Origin: Arenicellales bacterium
GTDB lineage: Bacteria > Pseudomonadota > Gammaproteobacteria > Arenicellales > JAJDZL01
DNA: 64,000 nt
Assembly (NCBI GenBank): GCA_965214785.1
Contig: OZ243975.1
Location: 132,914-196,913 of the forward strand
Reading direction: 5' to 3'
In this document: piece by piece, positions 17,931-59,004 of the stretch
Layout of the letters: each line of letters opens with the position of its first letter
Position numbering within the stretch: the stretch's first letter is position 1
The notes under the pieces: generated by a model
Databases searched by the model: none
The model's input: only the letters and a program-made list of their open reading frames with translations
Told to the model about the DNA's origin: nothing
Position numbers and translations under genes: made by a program

Positions 17931-18000
17931 GCAAGCAAATTAATCTCGCTGTCTGAGACAGGTGCAGTGCGTCAGAGCTTGGGTTGAGGTAAGTTTGCAA

Positions 18001-18942: not shown

Positions 18943-19025
18943 AGCGACAGCAAAAATGGAATGGAAAAGAGGTTATGACTTGAATCTGAAATATACCATT
19001 ACCAGCTATACGGTGCCTGAATATT

Positions 19026-21667: not shown

Positions 21668-21684
21668 TTCCAACAACAGAGGTA

Positions 21685-22125: not shown

Positions 22126-22134
22126 GTAAATTGC

Positions 22135-24220: not shown

Positions 24221-24249
24221 GTTAAACATTCAAAGCGAACAGGAACGAT

Positions 24250-25347
24250 ATGGCGACAACTGGAATTCCAACAAAACTTCAGGAACAATATTTTCAAATC
24301 AGCCCCGACTATGTGCGGATTTCTATAGCCGCGGCGATTGAATTAGGGTTGTCTCCCGGGCAGATTAACGGATGCAGTTGCAACTGCATAAACCTGCTGC
24401 AGAACTATCCGCATGGATGTGCGGCGAATTGTTCTTATTGCGGCTTAGCGCGTGAAAGGCCTGGATTGGCAGAAGACAACAGTTTTATCCGCGTAGACTG
24501 GCCCTTGTTTGAAACAGATCTGGTTGCCGAAAAAATCGCAGAAAAAGAAAAAAGAGACACTGTCGGGCGGGTGTGTATTGCGCAGGTTCAAGATCACAGA
24601 GCCACCGCTGACCTGATTGAAATGTCGTCGCGCGTAAGAAAAGCTGCAGCTGACGTTCCGATATCTGCGTTGGTGACAGCAACACTTTTGGATGAAGGCA
24701 GTTTACATCAGATCAAGGCATCCGGGGTTGACATTATCGGAGTTGGATTAGATGCAGTGTCGGAAGAAGTATTTTTGCGTACCCGGGGGAAATTGGCAAA
24801 AGGTCCGCATCAGTGGGACCAGCATTGGGAAATTGTTCGCTTGGCGCGTCGGATTTACGGACCGATGAAGGTTAATTGTCACTTGATCGTTGGGCTCGGG
24901 GAGACCGACCAAGAAATGTTCGATATGATTTATCAGTTAAAGTCTGAGCAGATTGCCGGTTACCTGTTTTCATTCAATCCGGAACCCGGTACGGCGATGC
25001 AGGATGTTCCGCGGGCTGCGCTGGTGCGATGGCGTCGGATTCAGTATGTCAAACACCTCATTGAAGAGTATGATTTGCCGGCAGATGCGCTTGAATACAG
25101 CAAAACCGGGGATTTAATTCGAGTTGATGCGCCGGACAATATGGCATCTGCTGCAATGAGCAGCGGCTTGGCATTTATGACAAATGGATGTCCGGACAGG
25201 GCAGGGGTGATGGCCTGCAACCGGCCGTATGGTTCTTACCGTCCGGGCGAGGAGTTCCGGGATTATCCTTTTCTGCCTGACCGGGACGAATTAGACAAGA
25301 TTGCTCAACAAACTAAAGTCAAGGCACTTCACGGCGAATTTCACTAA
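24250..25347 (+). CDS. Radical-SAM lipoyl-synthase-like protein (LipS1/LipS2 type, second member)
   Basis: CxxxCxxC motif CAANCSYC. Biotin-synthase-like 365-aa protein. Confidence 0.75.
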   Translation: MATTGIPTKLQEQYFQISPDYVRISIAAAIELGLSPGQINGCSCNCINLLQNYPHGCAANCSYCGLARERPGLAEDNSFIRVDWPLFETDLVAEKIAEKEKRDTVGRVCIAQVQDHRATADLIEMSSRVRKAAADVPISALVTATLLDEGSLHQIKASGVDIIGVGLDAVSEEVFLRTRGKLAKGPHQWDQHWEIVRLARRIYGPMKVNCHLIVGLGETDQEMFDMIYQLKSEQIAGYLFSFNPEPGTAMQDVPRAALVRWRRIQYVKHLIEEYDLPADALEYSKTGDLIRVDAPDNMASAAMSSGLAFMTNGCPDRAGVMACNRPYGSYRPGEEFRDYPFLPDRDELDKIAQQTKVKALHGEFH

Positions 25348-36200: not shown

Positions 36201-38752
36201 AAGCGCCAAAGACACTACCAACCGGGGTGAGCTATGCCAACCTTGGAGGCAGCGATCCTGCCAAGGCGCCGACAGTGACTTTTGCAGGTTCTACAGGTGG
36301 TGTATCTTCACTGACAGCAACACTGACGCTGACCACAGTTGCCGACAGCGAAGCTGAAGATGATAAAGAGACCGTTACAGTCAAATTGGGTACGCCGGCT
36401 ACAACAGGATTAGGCGGCGGTGTTTCGACTTCTGGAAACGTACAGTTCTCCATCTTGGAGCCTGTACCTGAGATTTCTATTACAGCGAAGACACAATCAG
36501 TTGCAGAAGGTACAGATGCGGTTTTTACTGTAAAAGCTAGCCGATCTTCAGGATCTGACCTTACAGTTAATCTTACAGTCTCAGAATCGGACGGCAGTGA
36601 CTTTGTTGCCGCAGATAAAGAAGGTACAGCTACAGTGACCATCACCAAAGGGGAGACGGAAGCTGACTTTTCAGTACCAACTGTAAACGATTCTGTCAAT
36701 GAGCCCGATGGGTCGGTAACCGTAACGGTTGTCGAAGACGGTGAAAAAGGACAGTATTACTCTCAAGCCTCATCACCCGATGATTCAGCTTCTATAAAAA
36801 TCACCGACAACGATTCAGTTGCGACGGGACCGGAATTCTCTGTAGCTGATGAAACCGCCAATGAGAATGTGGGTTTAATGTACTTTACAGTTCGCTTGGA
36901 TCGTTCATTGAGTCAAAAAGTACAAGTGACATTCAACGTACGCGAATCGAGTCCTGTCTCAGCCCGTATGGGACAAGATTACTTTTGGTGGTGGGAGGAC
37001 GGTCTTGCGCTTACCTTTTATCCGGGTCAGACCCAAAAGAAGATGTGGGTATATGTCTATAACGACAATCACGACGAAGACCCTGAGACCTTTGAGGTGG
37101 TGTTATCGAATCCGACAGGGGCTACAGCCATCGGTGATGGTGTTGCGGTTGGTACCATTGTGAACTCTGATCCGATGCCAGCTGCGTGGTTGTCGAGGTT
37201 TGGGCGCACCGCTGCGCAGCAAGCCTTAGACGGCATTGCCGCTCGCATTGAATCTTCAAGAACTTCAGGTATTGAAGGCTCTATAGCCGGACAGGCACTT
37301 GTGTTTGATCCAAAATCCAAATCACTTGTCACAAGCGGTGATGGACAAAGCGGAGCACAAAACAGTACTGCAAACAGTCTTACTGAAACATCATCGCTTG
37401 CAAGCTTTGATGTGCAGCATGCATTTGGAGATACAAAAGACGCATCAGGCAATACCGATACCTTCGGTTATCAGTCGTATTCTATGACTGAGAAAGAAGC
37501 GCTTTTGGCAAGCTCTTTCACGGCAACCGAAGATAAAGACACAAGCGGGGGTTCTTTAGCCTTTTGGGGTAAAGCTTCACAATCGAACTTCGATGGTACT
37601 GAAGGCACATTTTCGTTGGACGGAGAGGCGACTACTTTGATGAGCGGTACCGATTATGCACGAGGCGAGTGGCTTTTAGGCATCGCATTGATGCAATCCA
37701 AAGGCAAAGGCGGTTATCGCGATACCGATACGGTAAAGCAAGCGGATCTTCCAGAATGTAAAGAAAAAGACAATGACACTTTATCTGAAGATGCAAGAAA
37801 GGTTTTATGCAACGGTGCGATCCTAAAAGGCAGCGGTGATGTTGAAGCGACTTTGACTGCAGCTGTACCCTATGCATCGTTTGATGCGACTGAGCGTCTT
37901 AAGGTATGGGGTGCATTGGGTTTGGGTACAGGCGATGTGACGTTAAAGCCCAATGTCGGCGGCAAGTTAAGTTCCGATATCTCCTGGACCATGGCAGCAG
38001 GTGGCCTGCGCGGGGATGTGATCTCACAAGGAAGTGGTTTTTCCCTTGCTGTCAAATCCGATGTGCTGTGGGCGCGTACCACTTCAGATAAGACCAATCA
38101 GCTGGCGGCATCGGATTCGACAGTGACGCGTCTTCGCTTTGGTCTTGAAGGGTCATGGAACATGGCATTGGACGGCAATGGCACTCTGACACCGAAACTT
38201 GAAGCCGGCATGCGCCATGACGGCGGTGATGCGGAGAGCGGATTCGGTGTAGAGTTAGGAGGAAGTGTTGTATGGACAGATCCAACACTTGGCATGTCAT
38301 TGGATGTATCGGGCAGAACGCTTGTCACCCACGACGATGATGATCTAAAAGACTCAGGCTTTGCAGCATCGCTGATCTGGGATCCGAAACCTACAACCGC
38401 ACGCGGAGCGTCGTTTACTGTGAACTTGGACCGCGGCGCTCAGGCCAAAGGCGGCATGGATGCGTTATTTACCCCGCAGACCATAGACAGGCGTAGCGGT
38501 ACAACTGCAACTTCCGGTCGCTGGCGGGCGCAAGCTGCCTATGGCGTAGCGGCTCCGGGTGGTCGTTATGTCTCAAGTCCCTATATGGGTCTGGGTCTGG
38601 GTGCAGGTACGCGCGAATACACATTGGGTTGGAAGATCACGCCTGAGCCCAATGCACCGGATGTGTCTTTTGGGCTTCGCACCACGCGTACTGAATCCGA
38701 TTCGGCTTCTGCGCATCATGATGTGCGGTTCGAGGCGATTGCCCGCTGGTAG
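30293..38752 (+). CDS. Giant (2,819 aa) autotransporter adhesin with a Calx-beta / cadherin-like / FN3 multi-domain passenger
   Basis: - RBS AAAGGAG 7 nt before the ATG.
- ~66-aa extended signal peptide ending AGAQA/QT.
- Dystroglycan-type cadherin-like domain at ~31597-31891.
- Five NW(S/N)xxQT(V/I) modules.
- FN3 at ~34950-35210.
- Canonical Calx-beta units at ~35690-37150.
- Autotransporter linker and beta-barrel from ~37170 (AAWLSRFGRTAAQQALDGI ... RFEAIARW-stop). Confidence 0.85.
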   Translation: MNGSSKDRTDNPVIEIRLWSWFKQCSRLNRCEAGAASQYAGRLFRNVMTGFIALLVAVGLSAGAQAQTPTLPAVAPTEIYEGETLEFTLSVTRNFGLFPWTDGYNYLEPDSGGTATEGNSSDWYLADSGGNRIAQYSQSNSTPRLVTTGDGTQYYEIDFRLHARADSATESDETIRLYLHDEYDSHDNDYLTITLKDGTRPVMVTDGVTLSASALTLTELGSSSDVEKTYTVVLDTDPGADVTFTATVPAANSSEVEIKTGSGAFGSSATLTFTHGNTGNWSSAQTVTVRALNDADATNTTSFNLTHSLTVASGPYASITPDPVAVSVTDAGHGVTVSKASVSLAADGTVDYTIQLKSQPGGSVVITPTSSATARATVSGALTFTNSNWSTPQTVTVTGAGTGSATISHMVTTGTTDYPTSTTIASVTATVNAAANNTPTVANMIPDQTATVGTVLSYAFPANTFNDADNDNLTYSATKSDDTALPTWLTFTSGTRTFSGTPQAADVGTLSVKVTANDGNSGTVSDTFDIVVSHPARNLDIQVADAYEGENIVVTLTLSRAPGNVVARQRTFRVSTDVPSASNVNICISSYGCEAGSTPAAAADFFTVTGTDVVFGPSDTVKSVSLPTVTDSASEGVEVASIDILYSPGTGDLGIFTHGSTQVTGRNGFIAAPNLQETNIEVGSYGQIRDGARPVPITITEAGGTTVSEDGSTTTDSYTVVLDSQPRASVTVSATAGTGAQVQGPGGTAGGAATLTFTTTNWNQAQTITVTGVDDDIDNTGDARTVTIAHAASSTDSTYTIANAGEVSVTVTDDDTAGLVFSPDPVSVNEGETGSYTVALASEPSGNVTVTITGQGGSTDLTLDTDSVMAGDQDTLTFTTSNWSAAQTVELTAAEDNDSNNDSITLAHVPTGGSYGNAQNKNLAVTITDDEGLTPVISMSLPSGESEMYTDDDELIRPESEGGTGVLFTVSADRPLPSTLTVCVRVTESGGDRVTSGNEGIKTVSLPSETLTTSSNTHSLTWTNTNTDDQDSSVTVEIVAPNTASCSATNGSYTVSSSDASGKLLIKDDEPTTVELTSSDNTMIEGIAAHTATLTVSLSRQLYAGEVIVVPLTLASSTGARLPGSTNSGTANHDFTVAAAAASGHSGVTIADEETATPSLTFTGHGTNTVQTATVTLTPVAGRSDGDSTPETITATLATDSVLGASGTSTTVSGGAARHASNYMVSLTLAEPGTPGITLSPPGSLRLLETGTTSYTVVLDAAPTHDVTVTVTKSQAGLTGTGRTPDQNAADPSSNQLTFTTTNWSQPQTVTVTGADESGRHRNRAMRLIHSAGSTDSRYTGVNTNIRVDVDDAPELEAWDLAVMNANDYVAKQRPNTVKATRGFRYFQNDMTPIYPLRYQLRLSNRPASGETVTVTATSSDISKFGLSLTSGGTPQASLTVTFEDRPADRVCFNGGHSSLFDVNTSNPDASWACYRQIWVISTQQYSTFEKGCANITHTASGGGLRSTAIGTIRAHAVAGTAFAPYSAPGSDCPLITEELSTGRSAPAKAAPTPTEVVANVQVTAVDDTSASVTWDAVEHATSYDVSWSAESSDALNASAGDLPGITGTTATIDHGASVPMTLTVTVTPEYVDENGDTVQLDDLGTTATLEVGPGSDALRTEAQSPDTQSTQSAVTTVQRLEAAKLCVSDTLMEKTKRYYELHRNKAPGYGANWFAILTAFGERTQADWTADSRSIEPMSSASSRERESKWSGWKPFTEALECVEAELAKVQAAAQAEAQAAEQEAEQADKVAPQVLPDDLTVTLESADSASGVTEGTQVSFTLKTDSAPTKELEVTVTVTQTGSVADTSATGERTVTIPVGKTEAAFTVATIADDTDEVQGSLTATVSDGTGYKTEDQSASVTVAVKDDDATSITLSASADDLTEIVSEGSSEKTLTVTLGRTLIEGESIEVPLVFTGTASLGSDYTLEAPKTLPTGVSYANLGGSDPAKAPTVTFAGSTGGVSSLTATLTLTTVADSEAEDDKETVTVKLGTPATTGLGGGVSTSGNVQFSILEPVPEISITAKTQSVAEGTDAVFTVKASRSSGSDLTVNLTVSESDGSDFVAADKEGTATVTITKGETEADFSVPTVNDSVNEPDGSVTVTVVEDGEKGQYYSQASSPDDSASIKITDNDSVATGPEFSVADETANENVGLMYFTVRLDRSLSQKVQVTFNVRESSPVSARMGQDYFWWWEDGLALTFYPGQTQKKMWVYVYNDNHDEDPETFEVVLSNPTGATAIGDGVAVGTIVNSDPMPAAWLSRFGRTAAQQALDGIAARIESSRTSGIEGSIAGQALVFDPKSKSLVTSGDGQSGAQNSTANSLTETSSLASFDVQHAFGDTKDASGNTDTFGYQSYSMTEKEALLASSFTATEDKDTSGGSLAFWGKASQSNFDGTEGTFSLDGEATTLMSGTDYARGEWLLGIALMQSKGKGGYRDTDTVKQADLPECKEKDNDTLSEDARKVLCNGAILKGSGDVEATLTAAVPYASFDATERLKVWGALGLGTGDVTLKPNVGGKLSSDISWTMAAGGLRGDVISQGSGFSLAVKSDVLWARTTSDKTNQLAASDSTVTRLRFGLEGSWNMALDGNGTLTPKLEAGMRHDGGDAESGFGVELGGSVVWTDPTLGMSLDVSGRTLVTHDDDDLKDSGFAASLIWDPKPTTARGASFTVNLDRGAQAKGGMDALFTPQTIDRRSGTTATSGRWRAQAAYGVAAPGGRYVSSPYMGLGLGAGTREYTLGWKITPEPNAPDVSFGLRTTRTESDSASAHHDVRFEAIARW
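30880..35160 (+). other. High-GC, high-GC3 cassette internal to the adhesin ORF
   Basis: Line 31021-31080 is 41/60 G+C (68%), against 25/60 (42%) at 36481-36540 in the same ORF. Long antisense ORFs exist only here. Boundaries were estimated by eye to within roughly 50 nt. Confidence 0.8.
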
Positions 38753-45448: not shown

Positions 45449-45907
45449 CTAATTGGATAATACTTCCGGCCAGTTTGCGTCCGCTTTTCTAATATTGCCT
45501 GGAATGTCCTTGCTCCACTTTTTCCGCACGCTGCGGCTATAGTTCAGGTATAGCGTGTTGTCAACGATTGACCAGGCATCTGGGTCTGTACTGGCTGTGT
45601 AGTTATTAGACACTGCCCATGCGCAATAGCCGCCGTACTTGGGTGCCCACTTTTCTGGATCAGTCAGAAATATGTCACGATTATCAGCGCTGGCAAACCG
45701 CCAGGATGCACCGTTGTACTGTGCTGTGTAATTGTTATTGCCTTTTACAGGTTTTTCTTCAGTGTGATAGGCAACAGTGTCGTATCCTCGAATTGCAAAT
45801 TCACCCCGACCGGTAAATACCGCAGGCTGGTCGGCGTTAGCGACTGCAGAAAGCAAGGTTAAGGCGACTGCGGTACTTGCATACCTTAAAAAGCGTTTTG
45901 TCAGCAT
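45449..45907 (-). CDS. Periplasmic YHS-domain protein
   Basis: Signal peptide. YHS-type segment IRGYDTVAYHTE...YNGASWRFASADNRDIF...YGGYCAWAV. Confidence 0.7.
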   Translation of the reverse strand: MLTKRFLRYASTAVALTLLSAVANADQPAVFTGRGEFAIRGYDTVAYHTEEKPVKGNNNYTAQYNGASWRFASADNRDIFLTDPEKWAPKYGGYCAWAVSNNYTASTDPDAWSIVDNTLYLNYSRSVRKKWSKDIPGNIRKADANWPEVLSN

Positions 45908-46890: not shown

Positions 46891-48366
46891 TGCCTCACCT
46901 ATGGATACACGGAAAATTGTGTGTATGCGCGGTAGACAGACAAGTAAAGCCGTCGAAATTCATGTGCCTAATCGGAGCAAAGTACAAACAGATTAGAATT
47001 GGCAATCTCAAACACCAAAGGTTCCAGTTGCTCAAACCGCTTGCGGCGGTTCTACGGGTAACGCCCGAAGGTAGTCGCCAAGAGATGGGATTGGGAACCG
47101 ATAATGAAAGGGAAGCTCACTCAACGGAGCCAGAAGACCTGCGTGCAATGCATTGGTTAAAAACTCACCAATGGTTTGATCTGTTGTTTTTCGTGAAGAT
47201 TCCGTCAGTCGGATCACTTCTTCATATGACAGGATGTCAGCTAACTCACCTTGTTTGTCAGCAGCTTTCAAAGCCAACTGCTTGTAAACCCACGGCGGAT
47301 TGCTGCCGGCTGCAAGCCGTCCTGCATAGTATTTGTTTTTCCGTTCAACACCATTTTTCAGCGCCTGTTCAAGCAAATGCCTTTCCAGCTGGCTTTCGTT
47401 AGTTTGTATCACCCGACCTGCAGCTACACCTACCCTATTGATGTGTTGTGGCCACCCTTGGGACAAGTCCGCTAAAGCATCTGCCCAGAAATCCTTTTCT
47501 TCCTCGGCTCCGGTATAGTAAGCATCAAACATGCGCCGAAAGGAACCGGTTGCATCCGCCGTTTCAAGAGGCTGCAGATTTACTAACCGCTCATCGGCAT
47601 ATCTTGACAAACCACACTGGCGCAATACCTGCTCAGTGTCGCTCAGACCAAAGAACGCTGCAACCAGAGGAATCTCCTTGGGCGGATCTTGTAAACAGCC
47701 CATCACGCCTTTAGTAGTACCCGCTTCCGGCGTATTTTGGGCTTCATCCACAAAGACCACCAGATGAAACTTTTCAAGCAAAGGCGAAGCTTCGCGGAAA
47801 ATGCGGGCCGACCTCACCGTCATTTCTGAAAGGCTGACAGTCTGTGATCTGCCACTTACAGAATTTCCCGCTACGCCAACTTCCCATTCTGACAATTCTC
47901 CGTACAATTTTCCGCCCAAGTCCAGTAATTTCTTAAAACTACGGGCAATTGCATCTGGCGCTATCTTTGAAAGTCGCTCGCTTTCTTTATTCGCTGCATC
48001 AATCAAGTCCATCACGACTTCGGCAGGTGACTCCAGGGTGTCTGGTTTGATAGATACAGCAACCCAGGGATCATCCGGTGTTGAATGACATCTGACAGCT
48101 TCCATACATTCTTGCATCAGCGCAGTTTTTCCGATACCGGGCGCACCTTGGAACACCATTGTGCCACCACCTACTTGCCCTGCACGGAGGCTTTCTACCG
48201 CATTGCGAAAGATATCGTACTCAGCATCTCGGCCATGAAAAAACGCCTCGCGACCGACTTCGGCGCGATCGGTTCGCTTCAGCCACACTTCCTCTGGCAG
48301 AGGTTTTACTGGCAATGGCTTGGGAAAAGGTCTTTGATGCATACAGGTTATTCTAGCCCAATTAGG
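46891..48366 (-). repeat. Direct repeat copy B (paralogous ATPase gene plus flanks)
   Basis: Same orientation as copy A, at a 21,151-bp offset. Confidence 0.85.
47032..48342 (-). CDS. P-loop NTPase, AAA_16/AAA_22 (STAND/ORC-like) type, copy 2
   Basis: Start placed at the ATG conserved with copy 1 (MHQRPFPKP, 48342). The upstream 31 codons of the track ORF have no counterpart at copy 1. Walker A GAPGIGKT, Walker B LVVFVDEAQ. Confidence 0.8.
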   Translation of the reverse strand: MHQRPFPKPLPVKPLPEEVWLKRTDRAEVGREAFFHGRDAEYDIFRNAVESLRAGQVGGGTMVFQGAPGIGKTALMQECMEAVRCHSTPDDPWVAVSIKPDTLESPAEVVMDLIDAANKESERLSKIAPDAIARSFKKLLDLGGKLYGELSEWEVGVAGNSVSGRSQTVSLSEMTVRSARIFREASPLLEKFHLVVFVDEAQNTPEAGTTKGVMGCLQDPPKEIPLVAAFFGLSDTEQVLRQCGLSRYADERLVNLQPLETADATGSFRRMFDAYYTGAEEEKDFWADALADLSQGWPQHINRVGVAAGRVIQTNESQLERHLLEQALKNGVERKNKYYAGRLAAGSNPPWVYKQLALKAADKQGELADILSYEEVIRLTESSRKTTDQTIGEFLTNALHAGLLAPLSELPFHYRFPIPSLGDYLRALPVEPPQAV

Positions 48367-48779
48367 TCCGGCATTCTTTCTTCGGATTTTGGTGGTCGGT
48401 CTGATTATTGTTGATTGGTACCCTTTTTGCATCAAAACCGGGTCGCAGTGGCGGGATCAAGATAACGCTTGCATTGAAACCATCGACTCACGCTTACTCT
48501 TGATAAACCTTTCAATTTTGGCACGTTGCTTGTCGGTTGACGGCAAACTGAACCCCCGACCTTTGTCCACCATTCCTCTCAACCTGTGGTCTGGCTGAAA
48601 ATATACTATTGAAGTAATTCACATACATAGGCGTTGTCGTAACTGGTGTAATCAGACATCCTTGGCAGGCTCGTGAAAATTCGGTTTAAGGTTCACAAAA
48701 TTGTCGCTTTGTGGTGTTGAGCGATTATCGTGTGAACAAAATCATTCGGCATCAGCTTTCAGTTTGATATTTCTTACAT

Positions 48780-49781
48780 ATGAATGTAACTGCTCCACTT
48801 AGATTTATTAATCTCGGTACTATCCCGTTTCGTCAATCGCAAAGCGTATATCACGCAGTCGCTGCCACCATGAGCGAAAATACGCCCGATACGATCATTA
48901 TTTGCAGCCCGCTCCAGCCATATTATTGTTTGGGATACCATCAGTCTTATCGTCAAGTGATTGACCCAAAAGCCCGACGGAAACTGAGGTTCCCCGTCAT
49001 GCGTCGTCGCCTCGGCGGAGGAATGACTTATCTGGACAGTAATCAACTTTTCTATCAGTGCGTATTTCACCGCAGTCGCAGTCCTGTCATACCAGCACAG
49101 GTTTATCAATCCAAGCTCGATGCTCCAATCAAAACTCTAAAGCGAATTAATTTACAAGCACAATTGCTATACACGAATGAAATTGAGGTGGGCGGCAAAA
49201 GAATTGCGGGAATCGGAGGAGGGTTGATCGGGCAGGCCAATGTTGTCGTAGGCAATTTTCTTCGAGATTTCCAATTCGAGTCCATGGCAGACATAATTAA
49301 TGCTCCATGCCTGGAATTTCGCAGCCTGGCATTACAGACAATGCGCAAAAGAATTACCACGCTGAGGGCGAACAATTGTGACGATCGCTGGGATGAGTTG
49401 CCGAATATGCTGTTTGAAGAATATTGTCGATCATTGGGCAGACCGGGATTTTGGGGTGAGTTGACAGCCGAAGAAAAGCAAAAGTCCCAATCAGTTGCTG
49501 AAAAAATGACTTCCCAAAAATACCTTAATGCGCGCGACGAAAATCATTCGTATCCTGCCTGCTTGACTCGACTGAAAATCTCCGGCTCTACAAGCATTGA
49601 ATTGACTGCATTGAATAGCCATGTATCCAACCCATTCGTAGTCTTGGTCAAACACAACGGTACAACTGAACACGCTGAAGTGGTAGATAAGCTTAGAGAT
49701 GATTTGCAGCCAGTTGATTTGCTAAGAAAAATACGGCGGCTACAAAACGAGGAAATTCCAGCAGATTTACGGCGAGGGTAG
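48780..49781 (+). CDS. Orphan biotin/lipoate A/B protein-ligase-family protein (LplA/LipM-like)
   Basis: RRRLGGGMTYLD and GGKRIAGIGGG motifs correspond to the RRxTGGGAV and GxKI(S/A)G motifs of the BPL_LplA_LipB family. 333 aa. Confidence 0.65.
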   Translation: MNVTAPLRFINLGTIPFRQSQSVYHAVAATMSENTPDTIIICSPLQPYYCLGYHQSYRQVIDPKARRKLRFPVMRRRLGGGMTYLDSNQLFYQCVFHRSRSPVIPAQVYQSKLDAPIKTLKRINLQAQLLYTNEIEVGGKRIAGIGGGLIGQANVVVGNFLRDFQFESMADIINAPCLEFRSLALQTMRKRITTLRANNCDDRWDELPNMLFEEYCRSLGRPGFWGELTAEEKQKSQSVAEKMTSQKYLNARDENHSYPACLTRLKISGSTSIELTALNSHVSNPFVVLVKHNGTTEHAEVVDKLRDDLQPVDLLRKIRRLQNEEIPADLRRG

Positions 49782-49912: not shown

Positions 49913-50995
49913 ATGTGGACATTCGTTAAATTAATTTTTCATTCGCTTGCGATAGCGGTGCTGATGGTGGGAACAGCAAACCTGTCGGTGGCGCAGCAAA
50001 GCGAGTTGACGCAAAATGCTACGGAAGCATCCCCTGGTCAGTTTCTTGGCGCCAAACCAACTGAATATCCATCGTGGTTTAAGGAAAGTTTCCTCGAGTT
50101 TAGCGACGACATTGCAGAAGCCGCTGAACACGGTAAGCGAGTCATGCTTTTGTTTCATCAAGATGGGTGCCCATATTGCAATTTACTGGTTGAGAGAAAC
50201 CTAAGTCAGAAAGATATTGTCGAATTGATGCAATCTAAGCTTGATGTAATTGCGATCAATATGTGGGGAGACCGACAAGTCGTTACTGTAGATGGCGAGC
50301 CTTTCACCGAAAAACAGCTTGCAGGCGCATTAAAAGTTCAATTTACGCCAACGATGCTGTTTTTGAATGAATCGGGCAAGCCTATCTTGACCCTTAACGG
50401 ATATCTGCCGCCTGACGAATTTTTGACTGCAATTCGCTACGTCACCGAATCGCGGGAGACAGAAACAACATACCGCGAATTCGTGAAAGACAATCTGCAC
50501 AAAACAGATGACTCAGGTGAATTGATTGCCCAGCCGTTTTTTCAGAATCCACCCTACGACTTTCGCAGAAGCGATGAAGTTTCAGACAGACCTTTGGCGG
50601 TATTTTTTGAGCAAAAACAGTGTCCAAACTGTCAAACGCTGCACTCAAAGGTGCTGGTTGATCACCAAACCCGGGATTTGATTGCCAAGTATGACACGGC
50701 GCAGTTAGATATGTGGTCCAATACACCTGTTGTAACCCCTCAGGGATTGCAGACAACCGCCAAAGACTGGGCTTCCACTTTGAAAGTGAGCTTTGCTCCA
50801 ACGATCGTTTTATTCAATCCATCCGGACAGGAAGTCATCCGCTCAGAAGCGTGGTTCAAGATATTTCACACCCAATCGCTGTTCGATTACGTGTTGTCTC
50901 AATCCTATCAGACGCAGCCGAGTTTTCAGCGATATATCTCTGAGCGTGCCGAGCATCTCATCGAACAAGGTATGGATGTCAATATTTGGGAATGA
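49913..50995 (+). CDS. Periplasmic protein with two tandem thioredoxin-like (SoxW/Thioredoxin_7-like) domains
   Basis: Signal peptide. Two CxxC motifs in matching contexts (VMLLFHQDGCPYCNLL and LAVFFEQKQCPNCQTL). Each half resembles the 63446 SoxW-like protein (VMFELNDCPWCERM). Confidence 0.7.
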   Translation: MWTFVKLIFHSLAIAVLMVGTANLSVAQQSELTQNATEASPGQFLGAKPTEYPSWFKESFLEFSDDIAEAAEHGKRVMLLFHQDGCPYCNLLVERNLSQKDIVELMQSKLDVIAINMWGDRQVVTVDGEPFTEKQLAGALKVQFTPTMLFLNESGKPILTLNGYLPPDEFLTAIRYVTESRETETTYREFVKDNLHKTDDSGELIAQPFFQNPPYDFRRSDEVSDRPLAVFFEQKQCPNCQTLHSKVLVDHQTRDLIAKYDTAQLDMWSNTPVVTPQGLQTTAKDWASTLKVSFAPTIVLFNPSGQEVIRSEAWFKIFHTQSLFDYVLSQSYQTQPSFQRYISERAEHLIEQGMDVNIWE

Positions 50996-50998: not shown

Positions 50999-53900
50999 TC
51001 ACCGCATATTGATCAGTTCCTGAATCGAAACAGATTCAAGAAGTGACGCAGCACTGATTTGAATGTTGCTTTTGGTGCGCAGTTGGTGGGAAAGTTCCAC
51101 CGCCTGAAGACTGTCAATGCCCAAATCCACGACCAATTGTTCGAGTTCGATTTGATCTTTGGGGATTCCGATAACACTGCAAATGCAGTTGTAAACACTG
51201 TCGGCAACATCGTTTGGCCCTGAAACGCTGCCGTTTTGTGACTTGCGGTCGATTTGCTTTGCCGCCGAAGGCGTTGCACGGTCGTCGGAATCAATTGATT
51301 TGCGTTCATTGTGTGAATTTGCCCACTGTCCAGCAGCAATAGCGACTTGAGGTGATGGGTGATTCATCAGCACGCTTTTAAGCTTGTTCAACATCGCTTC
51401 AGCACTGCAGCCGCTCACTCCATAACGTGCGTTTATCGCATCGGATCGTCGAAGATTGTCGGCCACATATCCGCAGTCTGATACGCCACCCCAATTTACA
51501 GACAGTGCATTGATGCCATGGTCAGTCAGATAACTGGAGAAAGAATCAATGAATGCATTCGCTGCAGCATAGGCCGATTGACCTGCAGGTCCGACCAAAG
51601 AAGTAATCGATGAATACATGACGAAACAGTCGAGTTGCAGGTGTTTTGTCAATTGATAAAGGTTCCATGCTCCGATTACCTTTGCGCCCGCAGATTGAAA
51701 ATAACTTGCGCTGTCGACCTGCGTCAGAGCATGATCATTGATTTCCATTGCACAATGAAACACCCCTCGCACCTGTGGCAGCAACTTCATTGCCTTGCCA
51801 AGTGATTTTTTCAAACTCGATAACTCACAGATGTCTGCAGCCACGTGGTGGACCGCAGTGCCTGATTTTTCCATTTCATATTTTGCTTTTTGAAAGTCCT
51901 GCGAATTGCCTTGGTTACGATTAATTGTGATGATGTGCTTCGCTCCATTATGGCTAAGCCATTTCACGGTAGCCAGACCAAAGCCTCCTGCCCCGCCGGA
52001 AACAACATAAGTACTGTCACAGCGAACAAAATTCAATTGTGGAGCCAAGGGTCGGGCGATGGGCAAGTCTTCCATCGATATCACGCATTTTCCGATATGC
52101 TGAGCGCTGGCCATTGATTTGAACGCCTGTTTTGCGCGCCTTGCAGTAAAAATTTCACAAGGAAGCAACGGTAGTTTCTGCTGTTCAATTAATTTCATCG
52201 ACTCGCGCAACAGACTTGATAACTGCTCGGGGTCATCTTTCCACAGCCGATCAATATCGACGATGTGAATACTCGTGTTTTTATTGTTGGATCCAATAGC
52301 CTGATGAATCACATTTTGGTCTTTGTATTTTCCAAGTTCTATGAAAGACCCAAATTCGCTAAGAACATGCTGATTTGCTTCAGCGAGTGTTCCTCCGAGA
52401 GTATTGACCACAATATCGACCCCCCGGCCGTCTGTCCATCGCAGAACATCCTCAACGAATCGCTTCGAGCGTGAGTCGGACACATATTCGACTCCCAACA
52501 AGTTGAGTAATTCTGTTTTCTCTTTACTGCCTGCGGTAGCGAAAATTCTCAACCCTTTTTGGCGTGCCAGCGCAATGAGCATCAGACCCACACCACCCGA
52601 TGCAGTGTGAATCAAGATGGATGAATTTTTGCCAATGTCCGGGATTTTCGCCAGGCTGTAGAGTCCGGTTATCAGCGAAACTGGCAGCCCAGCAGCCTGA
52701 TTTGAACCGACAGTGTCAATACTCAGGGGATATGCAAAATTCTCATTTACACTCACATATCCTGATAGGGCTGCCGGTGACAGCGCGACCACACGGTCAC
52801 CTGGAATCAGTTTGGTTACTTTGCATCCCACTTGAACCACAACCCCCGCACATTCGATACCGAGCCTGTCTTGGGCTGCGCCCGCAAATACTGCGCTTTG
52901 TTCGAGTGCGTCCAGAGCGACCATAACATCCCTGAAATTCAATGCCGCGGCTTGAACTTCGACAACGACTTGGAAATCCGATGGCACTGGAAAATCGGTT
53001 GAAGTGAAATTCACACTGTCGAGATTTCCCGGTTCAGTGCACACGAGCGAATAGTTACGGTCGCTTGAAAAGTCAGTTGTGTTTGCCTCAATTGAGCGCA
53101 ATACCGGAACATATAGTTTTGAACCGCGAATCGACACTTCTTCATGCCCGTCATTGTGCATGATGAACTGCACCAAAGCCTCAATTGAGTTGTCGCAATT
53201 CTCATCGATGTCAACTATCGTGCATTGGGACTGGCGGTACTCATTTCGAATTGTGCGTCCGGTAGACCAGATTTCAGCGTTAAAGCACTGCGCAAGATTT
53301 GAAATGCCATCACCTTGATGCACATTGGATGATACAAACGTCAATCGAGGCAGCGCTAAAGTCAGTTCATCCAGCGCTTTGAGCAAACAGCTGACCATTA
53401 CGGTAAACGATGATTCGGTCTGTAACTGGGAAACTTCGACCTGCGCAGCAGGTGGCGCTGTGAAATTCCACAATATGATGATCTCCTGTGGTTGTTGTGC
53501 TGTCTTTTCGATAGACTGAAACAATTCTTTATAATCGCCAACCTCAAACGGTCGCATCGAATAGCACTGTTTGTTTTTCGAGAATTGTTCACCGCGAATG
53601 ACCCGCAGAGTCTTGTTTTTTCCAAAACTGGTGGTAAAACGGTCCGAAAACTCACCGGAATCAGAAAAAATCAGTTTGCAGGTGTCTGCTTTAGAGTTGA
53701 CAGAAACTGGCAGATCAGTTTTGGAACATTGCGCCAGAAATACTGCGTGTAAAGGCGCATTGTCGTGGACAAAATCCGCTGCGATGTTTGTGCATTTGAA
53801 ATTCCCCGAGTTAAGGGTTTGCTTCCACAGACTGATCAAATCGTCTGTATCGTTAGTCGTGTCATGAACATTTGCAGTGTTGTGCCAATCTGGCAACATT

Positions 53901-56900
53901 CCAAATACCAGATGAGCCCAATCGGGCTGTTTGATCATTTCACAAAACAGCAAGAATCCTCCCGGCACAAGTATGGCGTCAATAAACGACATTGTATGGT
54001 TCGGATTTGTAGCAAGATGCAATGCATCATTTGCAATGACAATGTCAAAGTGGTTTTCCTTAAACCCTTGAACTTGCGGGTCTGCGTTCAGGTCGAATTG
54101 ATCGAAGCTAACGTTGTCGAGGTGCCCGAAATTGTGTCTCGCTTGTCGTATGAAACTGCTAGAGACATCGGTGAAGGTGTACTCTACATTGTTAGCGGTC
54201 AAAAGATTTTCAAGATGAAACATCACAGCTGCCGTTCCACCGCCGATTTCAAGAATTTTCAAAGGCCGTTCAAATGGCCATTTGCTAAGCAGGTCTCGTA
54301 AGACTGCAGTGATGACTTCGTTGTAGATCAGGCAGGTTGGTGAAGCCCGATAGAATTTGCGCAAATCAGTCATGTCTCCTTGAGGAAACAGAACATCAAG
54401 TCCGCTTTTTTCACCTCGCAGCACTTCAGGCAGATGCCGCCCGCAGCGCTCAATTAGAATCACTTCCAACAGGTACTGAGCCGAATCAAATCTGCCTGTA
54501 AATTCGACGACAGCCTGTCTTACGCCTTGCGGCAGGTCTTGCTTTACAAAAACCAAGTTCTCGTTCGCCGAAGGTGAGTTGTCAGTCTGTGGCTTTATTT
54601 GAACGTAAGCAGCACGCTCCAACAAAGCCAGCAGCGAACCAAACAGAGGTTCTTGGGTTTTGGCAACGCGAAGATTTTTCTTCAGTTCGCGAATCGTAAG
54701 AACATCATTTCGGTTTGATATCCCACCACATCGAAAACAATCACCAATAAATGACAATGCGACAGCGGTGAGTTGATCAGCAACGTGACTGTAATAGGCG
54801 TGGCGCTTATTGCGCACGGCCGCGGTGTCGCAAAATTTCTGAATTGTTTCACAATGACTGTCTGATAAGGGTTCGAACCATGCTTGATGTGTCGCTGCCA
54901 GTTGCGTCGGTACCCAGGTCGGCAAGACAATCTGAGGGTCTTTGTCCTGTTCGAGTGCATCAGTACATTGCAAAGCACGCAGTTGCAATCCGGATACCTG
55001 CGCAATCACTGCAGTGTCAGAAAATATCGTCAGGTTCAATATCAAGACATTTTCAATTTTTGATATGACCTTTAGGTGACACCACACTTCAGAGCCTGGA
55101 CGGTGCATATAGCAGATGCGTTCAATTTTTTCTGGCAGGTAAATTTCGCGATTGATTTTACCGGTGAGCCACGACAATCGAAAACACAGGTCCAGCAAAC
55201 CGGGATCTAACAGGTATTGCTGATCACATAATCTGACAGATGCACCAGCATCGATTTTTGCAAGCAGTTCTTCGCCATTGATTTGTTTTACTTTCCGAAT
55301 CAGCCAACTTGTGCGTTCTGCCTGTAATCCCATTCGCTCAAGCTCGTCAAACAGGTTTTGCGGCGTGTCCACTACATCGGCGTTTTTAAATTTTTTTACG
55401 ATTCCATCTGTGTCGAGTGCGACGCTTGCGCATTGCAACTGGCCGCGGCAAAAAATTATCGGCTCTGCAACACAACTCGATCTGACTGTAAACAAAAGCT
55501 GATTGTCATTTTCGGTATTGTTGATCTCAAGTAAGAATTTGCGTTGTTCACTTGTTGGTTTACTGTCAACAGCCAGCATTTGCCTGAATTGAATGTCACT
55601 GACTTCCAAAGACGTTGTACCAAGAGTCTGTTGACCGGCTTGTAATGCAGACTCGATGTAACCGGCTGCAGGGTAGACGATTTCACCGCGAATTGTGTGT
55701 TTGCGAAGCCATGCCAGCTGCCCGATGTCGATGTTCATTTCCCAATGGTGAGATGACAGGTCACAAGATGTGATCAGCGATGGATAGTTGACTGAATCGT
55801 TGGTCTGACCCGAGATGGAGGTGGTTTTGTTCTGCGGCTCGATCCAATAGCGCTTGCGCTCCCAGTGATGCTCTGCAAATGCTACGATCTGAGCGGGTGG
55901 GTTGATTTTTCGCCAGTCAATATCGACACCTGCACAAAAAAGCTCTGCGACACTCGTTCGCATCGCAGCACAGTCGTGCTTTTGCTGATTCAGCGACTGA
56001 AAATGTCGGCCGGTTACGCCCTTTGTTTGCAAACACTGAACAATGCTATAGGACAAGGTGGGATGAGAGCCGATTTCAACAAAATTACAAATGCCATTTT
56101 GTACAGCTGTATCCATGGCATCTCGAAACCGAACAGGTTCTCGAAAGTTGTTCCACCAAAACTCGCTGTCAATTTCGTCTTCAGTGATTGTTTTGCCGCT
56201 GACCGATGAAATCCAATTTAGTCGTCGTGGCTTTATCGAAAATCCCGAAGTTTTTGCTATGACTTCATCTCTTGCGCTGTCGATCAATCTGCAGTGAAAG
56301 GGAACATGGATTTCGAGCACTCGACAAAACACTGCGGATTTGCTCAGTTTGTTTTCGATCCGCTTGATGCATTTGTTCGTGCCTGCAAACGTTATTGACT
56401 GATCACAGTTGTGTGCCGCGATAAAAAGTTCATCTTTATATTGTCCGACCAGCTCAAGTGCTTTGTCCATCGAGACAGCCGTTGCGAGCATGGCTCCGTG
56501 GCGGGTGAACTGATTGAGCGCGCTGGCTCTGTTAACAACAATTTTAATTGCATCATAAATGCTGATGCAGCCAGCTGCGCAAGCAGCAGCAACTTCCCCT
56601 AGACTGTGACCCATGACTGTCGATGGCGTGACATTCCACGACTTCCATAACTCAAAAAGGGCTGTTTGCAAGGTGAAATGCACACAGTGTGTTGAGACGA
56701 TATCGTCGGGCAGCGGGCGTTGATGACGGGTAAAAAACTCACTGACGCATTTGAGTTGATATCGCTGTTTCAAAATTGAGTCGCAAAGATCAATGATCGA
56801 GCGAAACACCGGTTCTGTCTGGAACAGTTGCCTGCCTGCATCACCTAAGTGTCCTCCAAGTCCGTTAAAAACGAATGCGAGATTCCTGTTGTCAGACTGT

Positions 56901-58850: not shown

Positions 58851-59004
58851 TTCGGTTGCTACCTGCGTGACAAAGTGAACTGACAATTCAACCGTGCTGC
58901 AAGGCAAAAGCAAGTTCGCTTCTTTTCGGTGAGTTGTGCATTGAAATTTTAGCAATTTTGCAGGTTCTCAAGAATAAAACTGTCCTGAATTTGCTTGCAA
59001 TACC

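What the first reader, a model, noticed from the sequence alone, without database searches (positions are those of the whole stretch)
50999..58955. FAS/HR-PKS-like megasynthase with no release domain, embedded in the sox locus behind the SoxR-like regulator
**Seen.**
- One uninterrupted 2,487-aa ORF carries intact catalytic motifs in the order KS, AT, DH, SAM-dependent methyltransferase, ER, KR, ACP. Coordinates are in the feature entry.
- The ORF ends 36 residues after the ACP serine, so there is no TE, reductase or condensation release domain.
- No PPTase, loading, acyltransferase or tailoring gene lies next to it.
- It starts 70 bp downstream of, and in the same orientation as, a two-Cys ArsR-family gene that is divergent from soxXYZA(K)BW.
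- Its 3' end abuts a periplasmic double-thioredoxin gene, with 3 nt between the convergent stops.

**Established.** KS-AT-DH-MT-ER-KR-ACP is the domain order of fungal highly reducing PKSs (LovF type) and of animal FAS. In animal FAS the MT is degenerate; here the LEIGGGTAA SAM motif looks intact. This is not the usual architecture of bacterial modular PKSs. ArsR-type SoxR/sHdrR proteins control sox and shdr genes in other sulfur oxidisers.

**Inference.** The synthase may be co-transcribed with soxR and so respond to reduced sulfur. It would probably make a saturated, possibly methyl-branched, acyl chain. To my knowledge no lipid or polyketide synthase is a recognised component of Sox/sHdr loci.
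Basis: partly seen in the sequence, partly recalled or inferred. Interest (0 to 1): 0.8.

Follow-up and report, generated by a model that had tools for sequence, protein, structure and literature searches.

The report
Fatty-acid-like synthase inside sulfur-oxidation locus
A giant, fully intact fatty-acid-type polyketide synthase sits directly behind a sulfur-sensing repressor gene in the middle of the thiosulfate-oxidation (sox) genes, and the same layout is kept in a whole clade of Arenicellales bacteria, which suggests that reduced sulfur switches on synthesis of a methyl-branched lipid.

Summary
ORF 50999-58462 (-) encodes a 2,487-aa single-module type I PKS: KS-AT-DH-cMT-psiKR-ER-KR-ACP. 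All catalytic residues are intact and no release domain follows the ACP. It lies 70 nt behind a two-Cys SqrR/BigR/SoxR-type ArsR repressor that is divergent from soxXYZA-SAXB-soxB-soxW. It converges on a periplasmic double thioredoxin.

New evidence:
- The arrangement recurs in 16 loci (about 13 distinct genomes), mostly Arenicellales MAGs, whose PKSs are only 34-61% identical.
- The PKS is under purifying selection (dN/dS about 0.25).
- In other bacteria the double thioredoxin lies directly upstream of soxX. So arsR-PKS looks like an inverted insert inside a sox locus.

- The architecture is not exotic for bacteria. Same-order, ACP-terminated synthases occur in several phyla.
- The best solved relative is mycobacterial mycocerosic acid synthase, not fungal or animal enzymes.
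- The closest described kind is the sponge-symbiont "Sup" PKS, but I could not test membership.

Best reading: an iterative, malonyl-extending, SAM-methylating synthase makes a saturated methyl-branched acyl chain that is off-loaded in trans. It is probably co-transcribed with soxR and derepressed by sulfane sulfur. Regulation and product are inferred, not shown.

The parts
50999..58462 (-). Single-module type I PKS/FAS-like megasynthase, 2,487 aa, KS-AT-DH-cMT-psiKR-ER-KR-ACP, no release domain
   Evidence: ORF listed, translated, Pfam domains, invariant catalytic residues
57029..58447 (-). KS domain with C-terminal extension (aa 6-478). DTACSSS C176, EAHGTGT H311, NIGH H350. DPQQR motif present.
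55925..56875 (-). AT domain (aa 530-846). GHSLGE S620, R645 and HVPFH H723 are malonyl-type motifs. The usual FxGQGxQW box is replaced by FNGLGGHL.
   Evidence: One search aligns it with CurL SHAFH (which I recall as malonyl-specific) and DEBS module 3 DYASH (which I recall as methylmalonyl-specific).
54971..55756 (-). DH domain (aa 903-1164). H922 lies in HxxxGxxxxP; D1091 is invariant.
53909..54301 (-). C-methyltransferase domain (aa 1388-1518). SAM motif LEIGGGTAA. H1482 and E1508 align with the conserved His and Glu of CurJ C-MT.
   Evidence: best PDB hit CurJ 5thy, 136 bits
53162..53674 (-). Structural pseudo-KR region (aa 1597-1767, Pfam Beta-ketacyl_N)
52079..52972 (-). ER domain (aa 1831-2128), NADPH motif SGGVG invariant
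51479..52015 (-). KR domain (aa 2150-2328), K2261/S2284/Y2298/N2302 invariant
51008..51214 (-). ACP (aa 2417-2485), phosphopantetheine site GIDS2451L. The protein ends 36 aa after the serine.
58463..58532 (-). 70-nt arsR-PKS spacer. No terminator-like or promoter-like site and no significant RNA structure. It contains a block, GTGAGCATTCArGCT, shared with the nearest relative L081.
   Evidence: Spacers of 27-116 nt in 14 of the 15 loci that have ArsR.
58533..58850 (-). Two-Cys ArsR-family repressor of SqrR/BigR/SoxR type (104 aa, probable ATG at 58850). Cys32 and Cys98.
   Evidence: Pfam HTH_5. Best NCBIfam model BigR, 87 bits, below its cut-off. Best PDB hit SqrR 6o8l, 94 bits, with both Cys aligned. 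Both Cys conserved in 15 of 15 orthologues.
58851..59123 (.). Divergent arsR/soxX intergenic region, the presumed site of both promoters and of the repressor's operator. Blocks AATTGTCAGTTCA and AAATTGyTAAAATyTCA are shared with L081.
   Evidence: The operator is not identified.
59124..63994 (+). soxX (59124-59489), soxY (59505-59975), soxZ (59956-60303), soxA (60335-61171), SAXB/soxK (61171-61515), soxB (61698-63458), soxW-type thioredoxin (63446-63994)
   Evidence: Pfam, NCBIfam SAXB
49913..50995 (+). Periplasmic double thioredoxin with a signal peptide and CPYC and CPNC motifs, convergent with the PKS. In other bacteria it is a sox-linked gene lying directly upstream of soxX.
   Evidence: Next to the PKS in 14 of 16 related loci and within about 1-2 kb in the other two. 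Sox-linked in L158 and L163.
48780..49781 (+). LplA-like lipoate-protein-ligase paralogue, loosely syntenic with the PKS-thioredoxin pair. Whether it belongs to the unit is uncertain.
   Evidence: Pfam LplA-B_cat. Present within 2-10 kb in 9 of the 12 Arenicellales-clade loci of the genome scan.

Best explanation
The gene encodes an active, single-module, fully reducing type I polyketide/fatty-acid synthase that most likely works iteratively.

Proposed chemistry:
- The KS extends an acyl primer with malonyl units loaded by a malonyl-type AT.
- The C-methyltransferase adds a SAM-derived methyl group at the alpha carbon in one or more cycles.
- KR, DH and ER reduce each unit completely.
- The product is therefore a saturated, methyl-branched acyl chain that stays on the enzyme's own ACP.
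- With no TE, R or C domain, the chain must be taken off in trans by an acyltransferase or thioesterase encoded elsewhere. I recall that PapA5 does this for mycocerosic acid synthase.
- The likely destination is a membrane or envelope lipid.

Proposed regulation:
- The gene is the second cistron behind a two-Cys SqrR/BigR/SoxR-type ArsR repressor that shares a divergent control region with soxXYZA-SAXB-soxB-soxW.
- Sulfane sulfur (thiosulfate or sulfide exposure) should bridge the two cysteines, release the repressor, and turn on sox and arsR-PKS together.
- The arsR-PKS pair sits as an inverted insert between a sox-linked double thioredoxin and soxX. It has been inherited in that place throughout a clade of Arenicellales.

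What is shown and what is inferred:
- Shown: anatomy, intact active sites, conserved synteny, purifying selection, and the regulator's cysteines aligned with those of SqrR.
- Inferred: iterative mode, co-transcription, sulfur response, the product and its fate.
For: Enzyme:
- All domains and catalytic residues are intact and invariant in the family.
- The MT is closest to the CurJ C-MT, and its His and Glu align with CurJ's.
- The AT aligns HVPFH and GHSLGE with the HAFH and GHSVGE of CurL, which I recall as malonyl-specific, and not with YASH and GHSQGE of DEBS.
- The best solved relative is the TE-less mycocerosic acid synthase, which I recall as iterative.
- PKS dN/dS is 0.22-0.28, so the gene is under purifying selection.

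Regulator:
- It is closest to SqrR, with both Cys aligned and conserved in 15 of 15 orthologues.
- The sensing mechanism of this regulator class is described in PMC12423496.

Operon structure:
- ArsR and the PKS are on the same strand with spacers of 27-116 nt in 14 of the 15 loci that have ArsR.
- The spacer has no terminator, no promoter-like site and no stable fold.

Synteny, in 16 loci whose PKSs are only 34-61% identical:
- The double thioredoxin abuts the PKS in 14 loci and lies within about 1-2 kb in the other two.
- ArsR is present in 15.
- The sox operon lies directly upstream in 13.
- In L028, which has no ArsR, the PKS is directly divergent from soxX.
- The double thioredoxin is sox-linked elsewhere (L158, L163), and none of 80 metagenomic loci with its relatives carries a PKS.

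Precedent: an extra fatty-acid synthesis gene set belongs to the SoxR/sHdrR regulon of Hyphomicrobium denitrificans.
Against: - There are no expression data and no product.
- A wider neighbourhood (LplA-like and YHS genes) is also partly conserved, so part of the synteny may be plain vertical inheritance.
- One lineage (L006, L007, L034) keeps arsR-PKS-thioredoxin without adjacent sox genes. One locus lacks ArsR (L028) and one has a 939-nt spacer (L005).
- A block in the spacer conserved between the window and L081 could be a separate promoter or operator.
- The PKS evolves 2-4 times faster than its sox neighbours.
- No PPTase or off-loading enzyme is linked, so the product's fate is a guess.
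- The AT has an unusual FNGLGG box, which makes the substrate call less secure.
- 'Ca. Taurinisymbion ianthellae', a sponge symbiont of the Arenicellales family LS-SOB, is reported to have no biosynthetic clusters, so the synthase is not universal among Arenicellales sponge symbionts.
Confidence: 0.6

Rival explanations
1. The position is a historical accident. A functional lipid or polyketide synthase landed once between soxR and the thioredoxin gene in the clade's ancestor and has stayed there because the region rarely rearranges. It has its own sulfur-independent promoter, and its product has nothing to do with sulfur oxidation.
For: - The wider neighbourhood is also partly conserved (LplA-like and YHS genes).
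- The L006/L007/L034 lineage keeps the PKS without adjacent sox genes.
- L028 keeps it without ArsR, and L005 has a 939-nt gap.
- A conserved block in the spacer could be a promoter of its own.
- The PKS evolves faster than its sox neighbours.
Against: - Spacers are 27-116 nt on the same strand in 14 of 15 loci, and as short as 27-28 nt in L003 and L004, which leaves little room for independent control.
- No terminator or promoter-like site is predicted in the spacer.
- Genes beyond the thioredoxin vary widely (BREX genes, sterol-type cyclase, PDZ protease) while the core is kept.
- Where ArsR is lost, the PKS is still divergent from soxX.
Confidence: 0.25
2. The synthase makes a specialised secondary metabolite, a reduced methylated polyketide used in host-symbiont interaction or defence, rather than a structural lipid. 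The sulfur-sensing regulator only times its production.
For: - Relatives with the same architecture in other phyla are followed by tailoring or off-loading genes typical of natural-product clusters: an aminotransferase in L010 and a stand-alone condensation domain in L015.
- The fast evolution (34-61% identity, dN/dS about 0.25) fits secondary metabolism.
- The carriers may be animal symbionts. The Arenicellales family LS-SOB is a sponge-symbiont group, though I did not place these loci in that family.
Against: - No tailoring, transport, resistance or release gene is linked in any of the 16 loci.
- A lone fully reducing module predicts a plain alkyl chain.
Confidence: 0.12
3. The synthase supplies a short acyl-ACP (octanoyl-like) to the nearby LplA-like enzyme for cofactor assembly on the lipoate-binding proteins of the sHdr sulfur-oxidation system. 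That would explain both the missing thioesterase and the sulfur-linked position.
For: - An LplA-like gene lies within 2-10 kb in 9 of the 12 genome-scan loci, and next to the thioredoxin in the window.
- The window also carries shdr, lbpA, slpl and radical-SAM lipoyl-synthase-like genes.
- The PKS ends at the ACP.
Against: - The C-MT looks active, so the product should be branched, unlike octanoate.
- The LplA-like gene is on the other strand, separated by the thioredoxin and at variable distance.
- Bacteria normally get octanoyl-ACP from type II FAS.
- A 2,487-aa enzyme is a costly way to make C8.
Confidence: 0.03

Closest known systems
Sup ('sponge symbiont ubiquitous') PKS, SupA (Fieseler et al. 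2007; Hochmuth et al. 2010), as described in PMC4245539 and PMC3908369
   Same: - Unusually small, single-module, FAS-like type I PKS, proposed to make methyl-branched fatty acids.
- The KS-AT-DH-MT-ER-KR-ACP order of SupA is my recollection, not read here.
- The KS has the DPQQR and HGTGT motifs used to amplify sup genes.
- The nearest relatives of the window PKS are Arenicellales MAGs. The Arenicellales family LS-SOB is a sponge-symbiont group, but I did not place these MAGs in that family.
   Different: - Membership in the Sup KS clade could not be tested, because no SupA sequence was obtainable.
- The AT lacks the FPGQGsQW and QGEIAAA motifs with which sup AT fragments were amplified.
- No sup accessory gene, such as the SupE permease, is linked.
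- I found no report of a sup gene inside a sox locus or behind an ArsR regulator.
Mycocerosic acid synthase (MAS) and MAS-like PKSs of mycobacteria
   Same: - Best solved-structure relative: 9d2z, 777 bits, aligned over KS-AT-DH and beyond.
- Single fully reducing module that ends in an ACP with no thioesterase.
- From my own knowledge: it works iteratively, makes methyl-branched saturated acyl chains, and is off-loaded by a separate acyltransferase (PapA5).
   Different: - MAS has no methyltransferase domain and takes its methyl branches from methylmalonyl-CoA.
- Here the AT has malonyl-type motifs and an intact C-MT is inserted between DH and ER.
- The genomic context and regulation are unrelated.
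Fungal highly reducing PKSs (LovB/LovF type) and animal FAS
   Same: The same linear domain order, including a methyltransferase-fold domain between DH and ER.
   Different: - They are more distant than bacterial relatives: LovB 564 bits and pig FAS 524 bits, against MAS 777 bits.
- From my own knowledge, animal FAS carries a thioesterase and a degenerate MT.
- The C-MT here is closest to the bacterial CurJ C-MT.
SwfA ('sponge widespread FAS')
   Same: Single-module FAS-like PKS of sponge symbionts.
   Different: SwfA is KS-AT-DH-ER-KR-ACP without an MT, lacks the DPQQ and HGTGT motifs, and is followed by swfB (reductase-sulfotransferase) and swfC. None of this applies here.
SoxR / sHdrR / SqrR / BigR sulfane-sulfur-responsive ArsR repressors and their regulons
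   Same: - The upstream gene is closest to SqrR, with both sensing cysteines aligned, and is divergent from sox genes.
- In Hyphomicrobium denitrificans, loss of SoxR or sHdrR changes expression of an extra set of fatty-acid synthesis genes.
   Different: - In H. denitrificans the affected genes are type II FAS genes located elsewhere, and their transcripts fall when the repressor is absent, which suggests an indirect effect.
- Here a type I megasynthase is the next gene after the regulator.
- The window protein scores below the BigR equivalog cut-off (87 against 155 bits).

Membership tests
Single-module fully reducing type I PKS with cis C-methyltransferase | KS, AT, DH, C-MT, ER, KR and ACP domains on one polypeptide, one copy each, in that order | tested here: met
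   Pfam scan, all above the curated cut-offs
Single-module fully reducing type I PKS with cis C-methyltransferase | Catalytic residues of every domain intact | tested here: met
   Invariant in the 21-member alignment. MT His and Glu aligned with CurJ. AT Ser, Arg and His aligned with CurL and DEBS.
Single-module fully reducing type I PKS with cis C-methyltransferase | Iterative use of the single module | not testable with these tools
   Needs product analysis. Inferred by analogy with MAS and fungal highly reducing PKSs.
Sup (SupA) sponge-symbiont PKS | KS falls in the sponge-specific Sup clade | not testable with these tools
   No SupA reference sequence was obtainable: Fieseler 2007 is not held and the protein searches returned no named Sup entry. 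No short KS fragment in the database was more than 55% identical to the window KS.
Sup (SupA) sponge-symbiont PKS | Small single-module FAS-like architecture with DPQQR and HGTGT KS motifs | tested here: met
   Definition taken and from my recollection of the SupA domain order.
Sup (SupA) sponge-symbiont PKS | AT carries FPGQGsQW- and QGEIAAA-type motifs, the primer sites that recovered sup AT fragments | tested here: not met
   The window has FNGLGGHL and LGEVAAA, and the family consensus is FNGIG. This is a weak criterion because the primers are degenerate.
Sup (SupA) sponge-symbiont PKS | Carried by sponge-associated bacteria | tested here: inconclusive
   The nearest relatives are Arenicellales MAGs. 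The Arenicellales family LS-SOB is a sponge-symbiont group. The hosts of these MAGs and the origin of the window are not given.
Sup (SupA) sponge-symbiont PKS | Linked sup accessory genes (for example the SupE permease) | tested here: not met
   No such gene lies next to the PKS in the window or in the related loci. SupE is named as a permease.
MAS-like PKS | Fully reducing single module ending in an ACP, no TE | tested here: met
MAS-like PKS | Methylmalonyl-specific AT (YASH and GHSQG) and no MT domain | tested here: not met
   HVPFH and GHSLGE motifs, and an intact C-MT is present
SwfA | KS-AT-DH-ER-KR-ACP without an MT; DPQQ and HGTGT replaced; swfB and swfC downstream | tested here: not met
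   compared
SqrR/BigR/SoxR-type sulfane-sulfur-sensing ArsR repressor (upstream gene) | ArsR winged-helix domain with two conserved sensing cysteines | tested here: met
   HTH_5. Cys32 and Cys98 align with the two Cys of SqrR 6o8l. Conserved in 15 of 15 orthologues.
SqrR/BigR/SoxR-type sulfane-sulfur-sensing ArsR repressor (upstream gene) | Reaches the curated equivalog score of a characterised member | tested here: not met
   BigR model 87.1 bits against a cut-off of 155. It is a related subfamily, not BigR itself.
SqrR/BigR/SoxR-type sulfane-sulfur-sensing ArsR repressor (upstream gene) | DNA release on persulfidation; control of the adjacent sulfur-oxidation genes | not testable with these tools
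   Only the divergent position next to soxX was shown

The most novel reading that the evidence does not exclude
[quoted passage not shown] These bacteria may be animal (sponge) symbionts. If this family belongs to, or is sister to, the Sup PKSs, the result would do three things:
- name a producer for the long-unassigned mid-chain-branched fatty acids of sponges;
- tie that lipid biomarker to sulfide or thiosulfate availability inside the host;
- add a lipid synthase as a regular accessory of a Sox locus.
Probability: 0.15. Interest if true: 0.75.

Novelty: new variant of a known kind. Interest (0 to 1): 0.55.

Why it matters
- Sox and sHdr loci are regarded as purely sulfur-handling and redox modules. 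A conserved megasynthase operonic with the sulfane-sulfur sensor would mean that sulfur oxidisers remodel lipids, or make a lipid-like metabolite, as part of their response to reduced sulfur.
- For sponge-symbiont biology, it gives a concrete and genetically simple candidate for methyl-branched fatty acid production. The candidate has one gene, a known regulator class and a known inducer, and sits in a defined bacterial clade.
- The producer of the Sup-type products was still called unresolved in 2014 (PMC4245539).
- The hypothesis can be tested directly with existing sponge metatranscriptomes and by heterologous expression.

Tried and rejected
Searches that led nowhere:
1. I looked for a SupA reference sequence to place the KS. 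Fieseler 2007 is not held and Siegl 2011 is not held.
2. A database search with the KS amplicon region returned only short unnamed fragments of at most 55% identity.
3. A search with the MT-psiKR region returned four unrelated MT-KR-ACP proteins.
4. Cluster look-ups gave no names or accessions for the family.
5. The window's own contig is not in the gene-position index.

Ideas rejected:
1. Two PKS copies in one MAG (L006, L007) first looked like a duplication of the arsR-PKS-thioredoxin module. They turned out to be part of a segmental duplication of more than 20 kb, or a strain mis-assembly, at 87-99% nucleotide identity. So they say nothing about the unit's boundaries.
2. Degenerate pseudo-enzyme: rejected, because the catalytic residues are invariant and dN/dS is about 0.25.
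3. Recent horizontal import: no compositional signal. GC is 0.47, the same as the surroundings.
4. Terminator or structured RNA in the spacer: none found, z = 0.09.
5. SwfA or MAS membership: rejected on defining features.

Left open: I did not identify the repressor's operator. Only two-sequence conservation blocks were seen.

Full report
**1. The observation**

The window has one uninterrupted ORF on the minus strand, 50999..58462, of 2,487 codons. Pfam finds the following domains, all far above the curated cut-offs:
- KS, aa 6-378, with its C-terminal extension to 478
- AT, 530-846
- DH, 903-1164
- a SAM methyltransferase, 1388-1518
- the structural pseudo-KR region, 1597-1767
- ER, 1831-2128
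- KR, 2150-2328
- ACP, 2417-2485

The ACP serine is S2451 and the protein stops 36 residues later, so there is no thioesterase, reductase or condensation domain.

- An ArsR-family gene ends 70 nt upstream on the same strand.
- soxX, soxY, soxZ, soxA, a SoxAX-binding protein (SAXB/SoxK), soxB and a SoxW-type thioredoxin run divergently from it.
- A signal-peptide-bearing double thioredoxin (CPYC and CPNC) converges on the PKS, with 3 nt between the stop codons.

None of the ORFs I scanned elsewhere in the 64 kb is a PPTase, thioesterase, acyltransferase or tailoring enzyme. The rest of the window holds phosphate and amino-acid ABC transporters, an shdr-lbpA-slpl-radical-SAM cluster, isoprenoid genes, a giant adhesin-like protein and NAD-glutamate dehydrogenase.

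One correction: the ArsR gene most likely starts at the ATG at 58850, not at the TTG at 58955.

**2. Is the enzyme intact?**

I aligned 21 full-length relatives that are 34-60% identical to the window protein. These residues are invariant:
- KS: C176, H311, H350
- AT: S620, R645, H723
- DH: H922, D1091
- MT: motif I, E1405-G1407-G1409
- ER: G1956-G1959
- KR: K2261, S2284, Y2298, N2302
- ACP: S2451

The methyltransferase is closest to the C-methyltransferase of CurJ among solved structures (136 bits). H1482 and E1508 align with the conserved His and Glu of CurJ, 26 residues apart in both. That this pair is the catalytic dyad is my recollection of the CurJ and PksCT structures.

The AT aligns its GHSLGE and HVPFH with GHSVGE and SHAFH of CurL, and against GHSQGE and DYASH of DEBS module 3. 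That CurL is malonyl-specific and DEBS module 3 methylmalonyl-specific is my own knowledge. So I predict malonyl extender units, with methyl branches coming from SAM. The family replaces the usual FxGQGxQW box by FNG(I/L)G, which makes this prediction somewhat less safe.

Among close pairs of orthologues, dN/dS is 0.22-0.28. That is purifying selection, but 2-4 times more relaxed than for SoxB, ArsR or the thioredoxin in the same genomes.

**3. Relatives and synteny**

The protein database holds about 50 clusters of the same length and architecture at 35-60% identity, none of them named.

In the species-representative genome collection, the relatives at 37-44% identity are ten loci from nine 'Arenicellales bacterium' MAGs and two from unclassified Gammaproteobacteria MAGs. 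The next tier, at 27-37%, comes from Verrucomicrobiota, Planctomycetota, Alphaproteobacteria, Acidobacteriota, Cyanobacteria and actinomycetes.

I examined 16 loci, which represent about 13 distinct genomes: the window, the 60%-identical L081, the 12 genome loci, and two more divergent ones (L083, L084).
- The double thioredoxin converges directly on the PKS in 14. In the other two it lies about 1 kb (L003) or 2 kb (L001) away. It is disrupted in L001 and frameshifted in L014.
- The ArsR gene is on the same strand directly upstream in 15. The spacer is 27-116 nt in 14 of them and 939 nt in L005.
- L028 has no ArsR. There the PKS is directly divergent from soxX, across about 300 nt.
- The soxXYZA-SAXB-soxB-soxW operon lies divergently upstream in 13.
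- The three loci without adjacent sox genes (L006, L007, L034) belong to one lineage. L006 and L007 are two copies of a duplication of more than 20 kb inside one MAG, so they are not independent.
- Genes beyond the thioredoxin vary: BREX genes, a PDZ protease, a squalene-epoxidase/cyclase fusion. An LplA-like gene and YHS genes recur loosely.

PKS identities between lineages are 34-46%: KS 57-65%, linkers about 20%. SoxA is 72-82% identical over the same comparisons. GC content gives no sign of recent import.

**4. What the flanks say**

The ArsR protein is closest to SqrR of Rhodobacter capsulatus among solved structures (94 bits). Its two cysteines, LMILC32HL and EIYC98A, align with the two cysteines of SqrR. 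Both are conserved in all 15 orthologues. The best NCBIfam model is BigR, though below its equivalog cut-off.

This class, which includes SoxR and sHdrR, senses sulfane sulfur by bridging the two cysteines and then leaves the DNA (PMC12423496).

The double thioredoxin has many relatives in metagenomes: 566 confirmed stretches. None of the best 80 loci carries a PKS. In two of them (L158, L163) it lies just upstream of soxXYZA(B) on the same strand, with only a small ORF in between.

So in other bacteria the thioredoxin is itself a sox-linked gene. In the Arenicellales clade, arsR-PKS sits as an inverted unit between it and soxX. The megasynthase is therefore inside a sox locus, not merely beside one.

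**5. Co-transcription**

The 70-nt spacer has no terminator-like or promoter-like site and folds no better than shuffled sequence (z = 0.09). Spacers of 27-28 nt in L003 and L004 leave almost no room for independent signals.

One caveat: a block, GTGAGCATTCArGCT, about 22 nt before the PKS start is shared by the window and L081. It could be an operator or a promoter of the PKS's own.

**6. Most likely mechanism**

I read this as an iteratively acting, malonyl-extending, SAM-methylating, fully reducing synthase. It builds a saturated methyl-branched acyl chain on its own ACP.

The chain is removed in trans by an unlinked enzyme. I recall that this is how the TE-less mycocerosic acid synthase is off-loaded by PapA5. 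Same-architecture synthases in other phyla are followed by a stand-alone condensation domain (L015) or an aminotransferase (L010).

Expression is probably driven from the arsR promoter and released by sulfane sulfur together with the sox genes. The likely purpose is membrane or envelope remodelling when reduced sulfur appears.

The anatomy, active sites, synteny, selection and regulator type are shown. The iteration, the transcript, the inducer and the product are inferred.

**7. Comparison with what is known**

- **MAS.** The best solved relative is bacterial mycocerosic acid synthase at 777 bits, ahead of LovB at 564 and pig FAS at 524. The enzyme works like a MAS-type synthase. It is not a member, because it has an MT domain and a malonyl-type AT.
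- **Sup.** The closest described kind is the 'Sup' PKS of sponge symbionts. These are small, single-module, FAS-like enzymes proposed to make mid-chain methyl-branched fatty acids, whose producer was called unresolved in 2014. The Arenicellales family LS-SOB is a sponge-symbiont group of sulfur oxidisers, which makes the link attractive, although I did not place these MAGs in that family. I could not get a SupA sequence, so clade membership is untested. The AT primer motifs and the accessory genes do not match.
- **SwfA.** Excluded.
- **Regulon precedent.** Extra type II fatty-acid synthesis genes respond to loss of SoxR or sHdrR in Hyphomicrobium denitrificans, but they lie elsewhere and respond in the opposite direction.
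- **Literature.** Searches for a PKS in or next to sox loci found nothing.

**8. Verdict**

The synthase type is known and is widespread in bacteria. What is new is its conserved place as the cistron behind a SoxR-type sensor inside a sox locus of a defined clade, which may consist of sponge symbionts.

I rate it a new variant of a known kind, of moderate to fairly high interest. The decisive experiments are simple: a transcript across the spacer, induction by thiosulfate, and the product of heterologous expression.

Noticed in passing
window 30293-38752 (+): A 2,819-aa ORF lies in a stretch of 59-67% GC, against about 47% elsewhere. It has He_PIG and Calx-beta domains and is rich in T, G, D and V (VTVTDDD-type repeats). 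There are no tandem DNA repeats. It is probably a giant surface adhesin.
   Followed up: partly
window 10813-25347: An sHdr-type sulfur-oxidation cluster: CCG and 4Fe-4S HdrB/C-like genes, a YeeE/YedE sulfur transporter (20453-21667), a lipoate-binding GCV_H protein (21685-22125), an LplA-type ligase (22135-23247) and two radical-SAM genes (23174-24220, 24250-25347). Squalene/phytoene synthase (19026-20066) and LytB (18001-18942) lie in between.
   Followed up: partly
window 58463-58532 and 58851-59123; L081 9336-10000: Intergenic blocks are conserved between the window and its 61%-identical relative. AATTGTCAGTTCA lies about 28 nt before the arsR ATG. AAATTGyTAAAATyTCA lies further upstream. 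GTGAGCATTCArGCT lies about 22 nt before the PKS ATG. They could be operator or promoter elements. Only two sequences were compared.
   Followed up: partly
L084 19931-23335 (-): An Arenicellales MAG encodes a 1,134-aa fusion of a squalene epoxidase/FAD domain with a squalene-hopene/oxidosqualene cyclase, two genes away from the PKS-thioredoxin pair. This is a possible sterol-type cyclisation enzyme in a bacterium.
   Followed up: no
L006 and L007 (both from OY762925.1, about 177 kb apart): More than 20 kb, including arsR-PKS-thioredoxin, is present twice in one 3.8-Mb MAG. Identity is 87% over 15 kb and 99.6% over 3 kb. This is either a segmental duplication or two strains collapsed into one assembly.
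   Followed up: partly
L001 17475-20503; L014 17475-18526: The double thioredoxin next to the PKS is split by an insertion of about 2 kb in L001 and is frameshifted in L014, while the PKS stays intact. These may be long-read errors or real loss.
   Followed up: no
window 25881-27191 (-) and 47032-48435 (-): Two paralogous AAA_16 ATPase genes (436 and 467 aa) of unknown role. One lies between the LplA-like gene and the peroxiredoxin near the PKS.
   Followed up: no
window 27715-30225 (+): An 836-aa protein with an arylsulfotransferase (ASST) beta-propeller domain, directly upstream of the giant adhesin-like ORF.
   Followed up: no
L083 20275-27377: BREX phage-defence genes (BrxL, PglZ, a PglX-type methyltransferase) lie downstream of the thioredoxin in one relative. 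This shows how variable that flank is.
   Followed up: no
window 45449-45907 (-); L001, L002, L008, L014 about 23.9-26.3 kb: A YHS-domain (seleno)protein family gene recurs a few kb from the PKS in several relatives, sometimes in two copies, next to a peroxiredoxin in the window.
   Followed up: no
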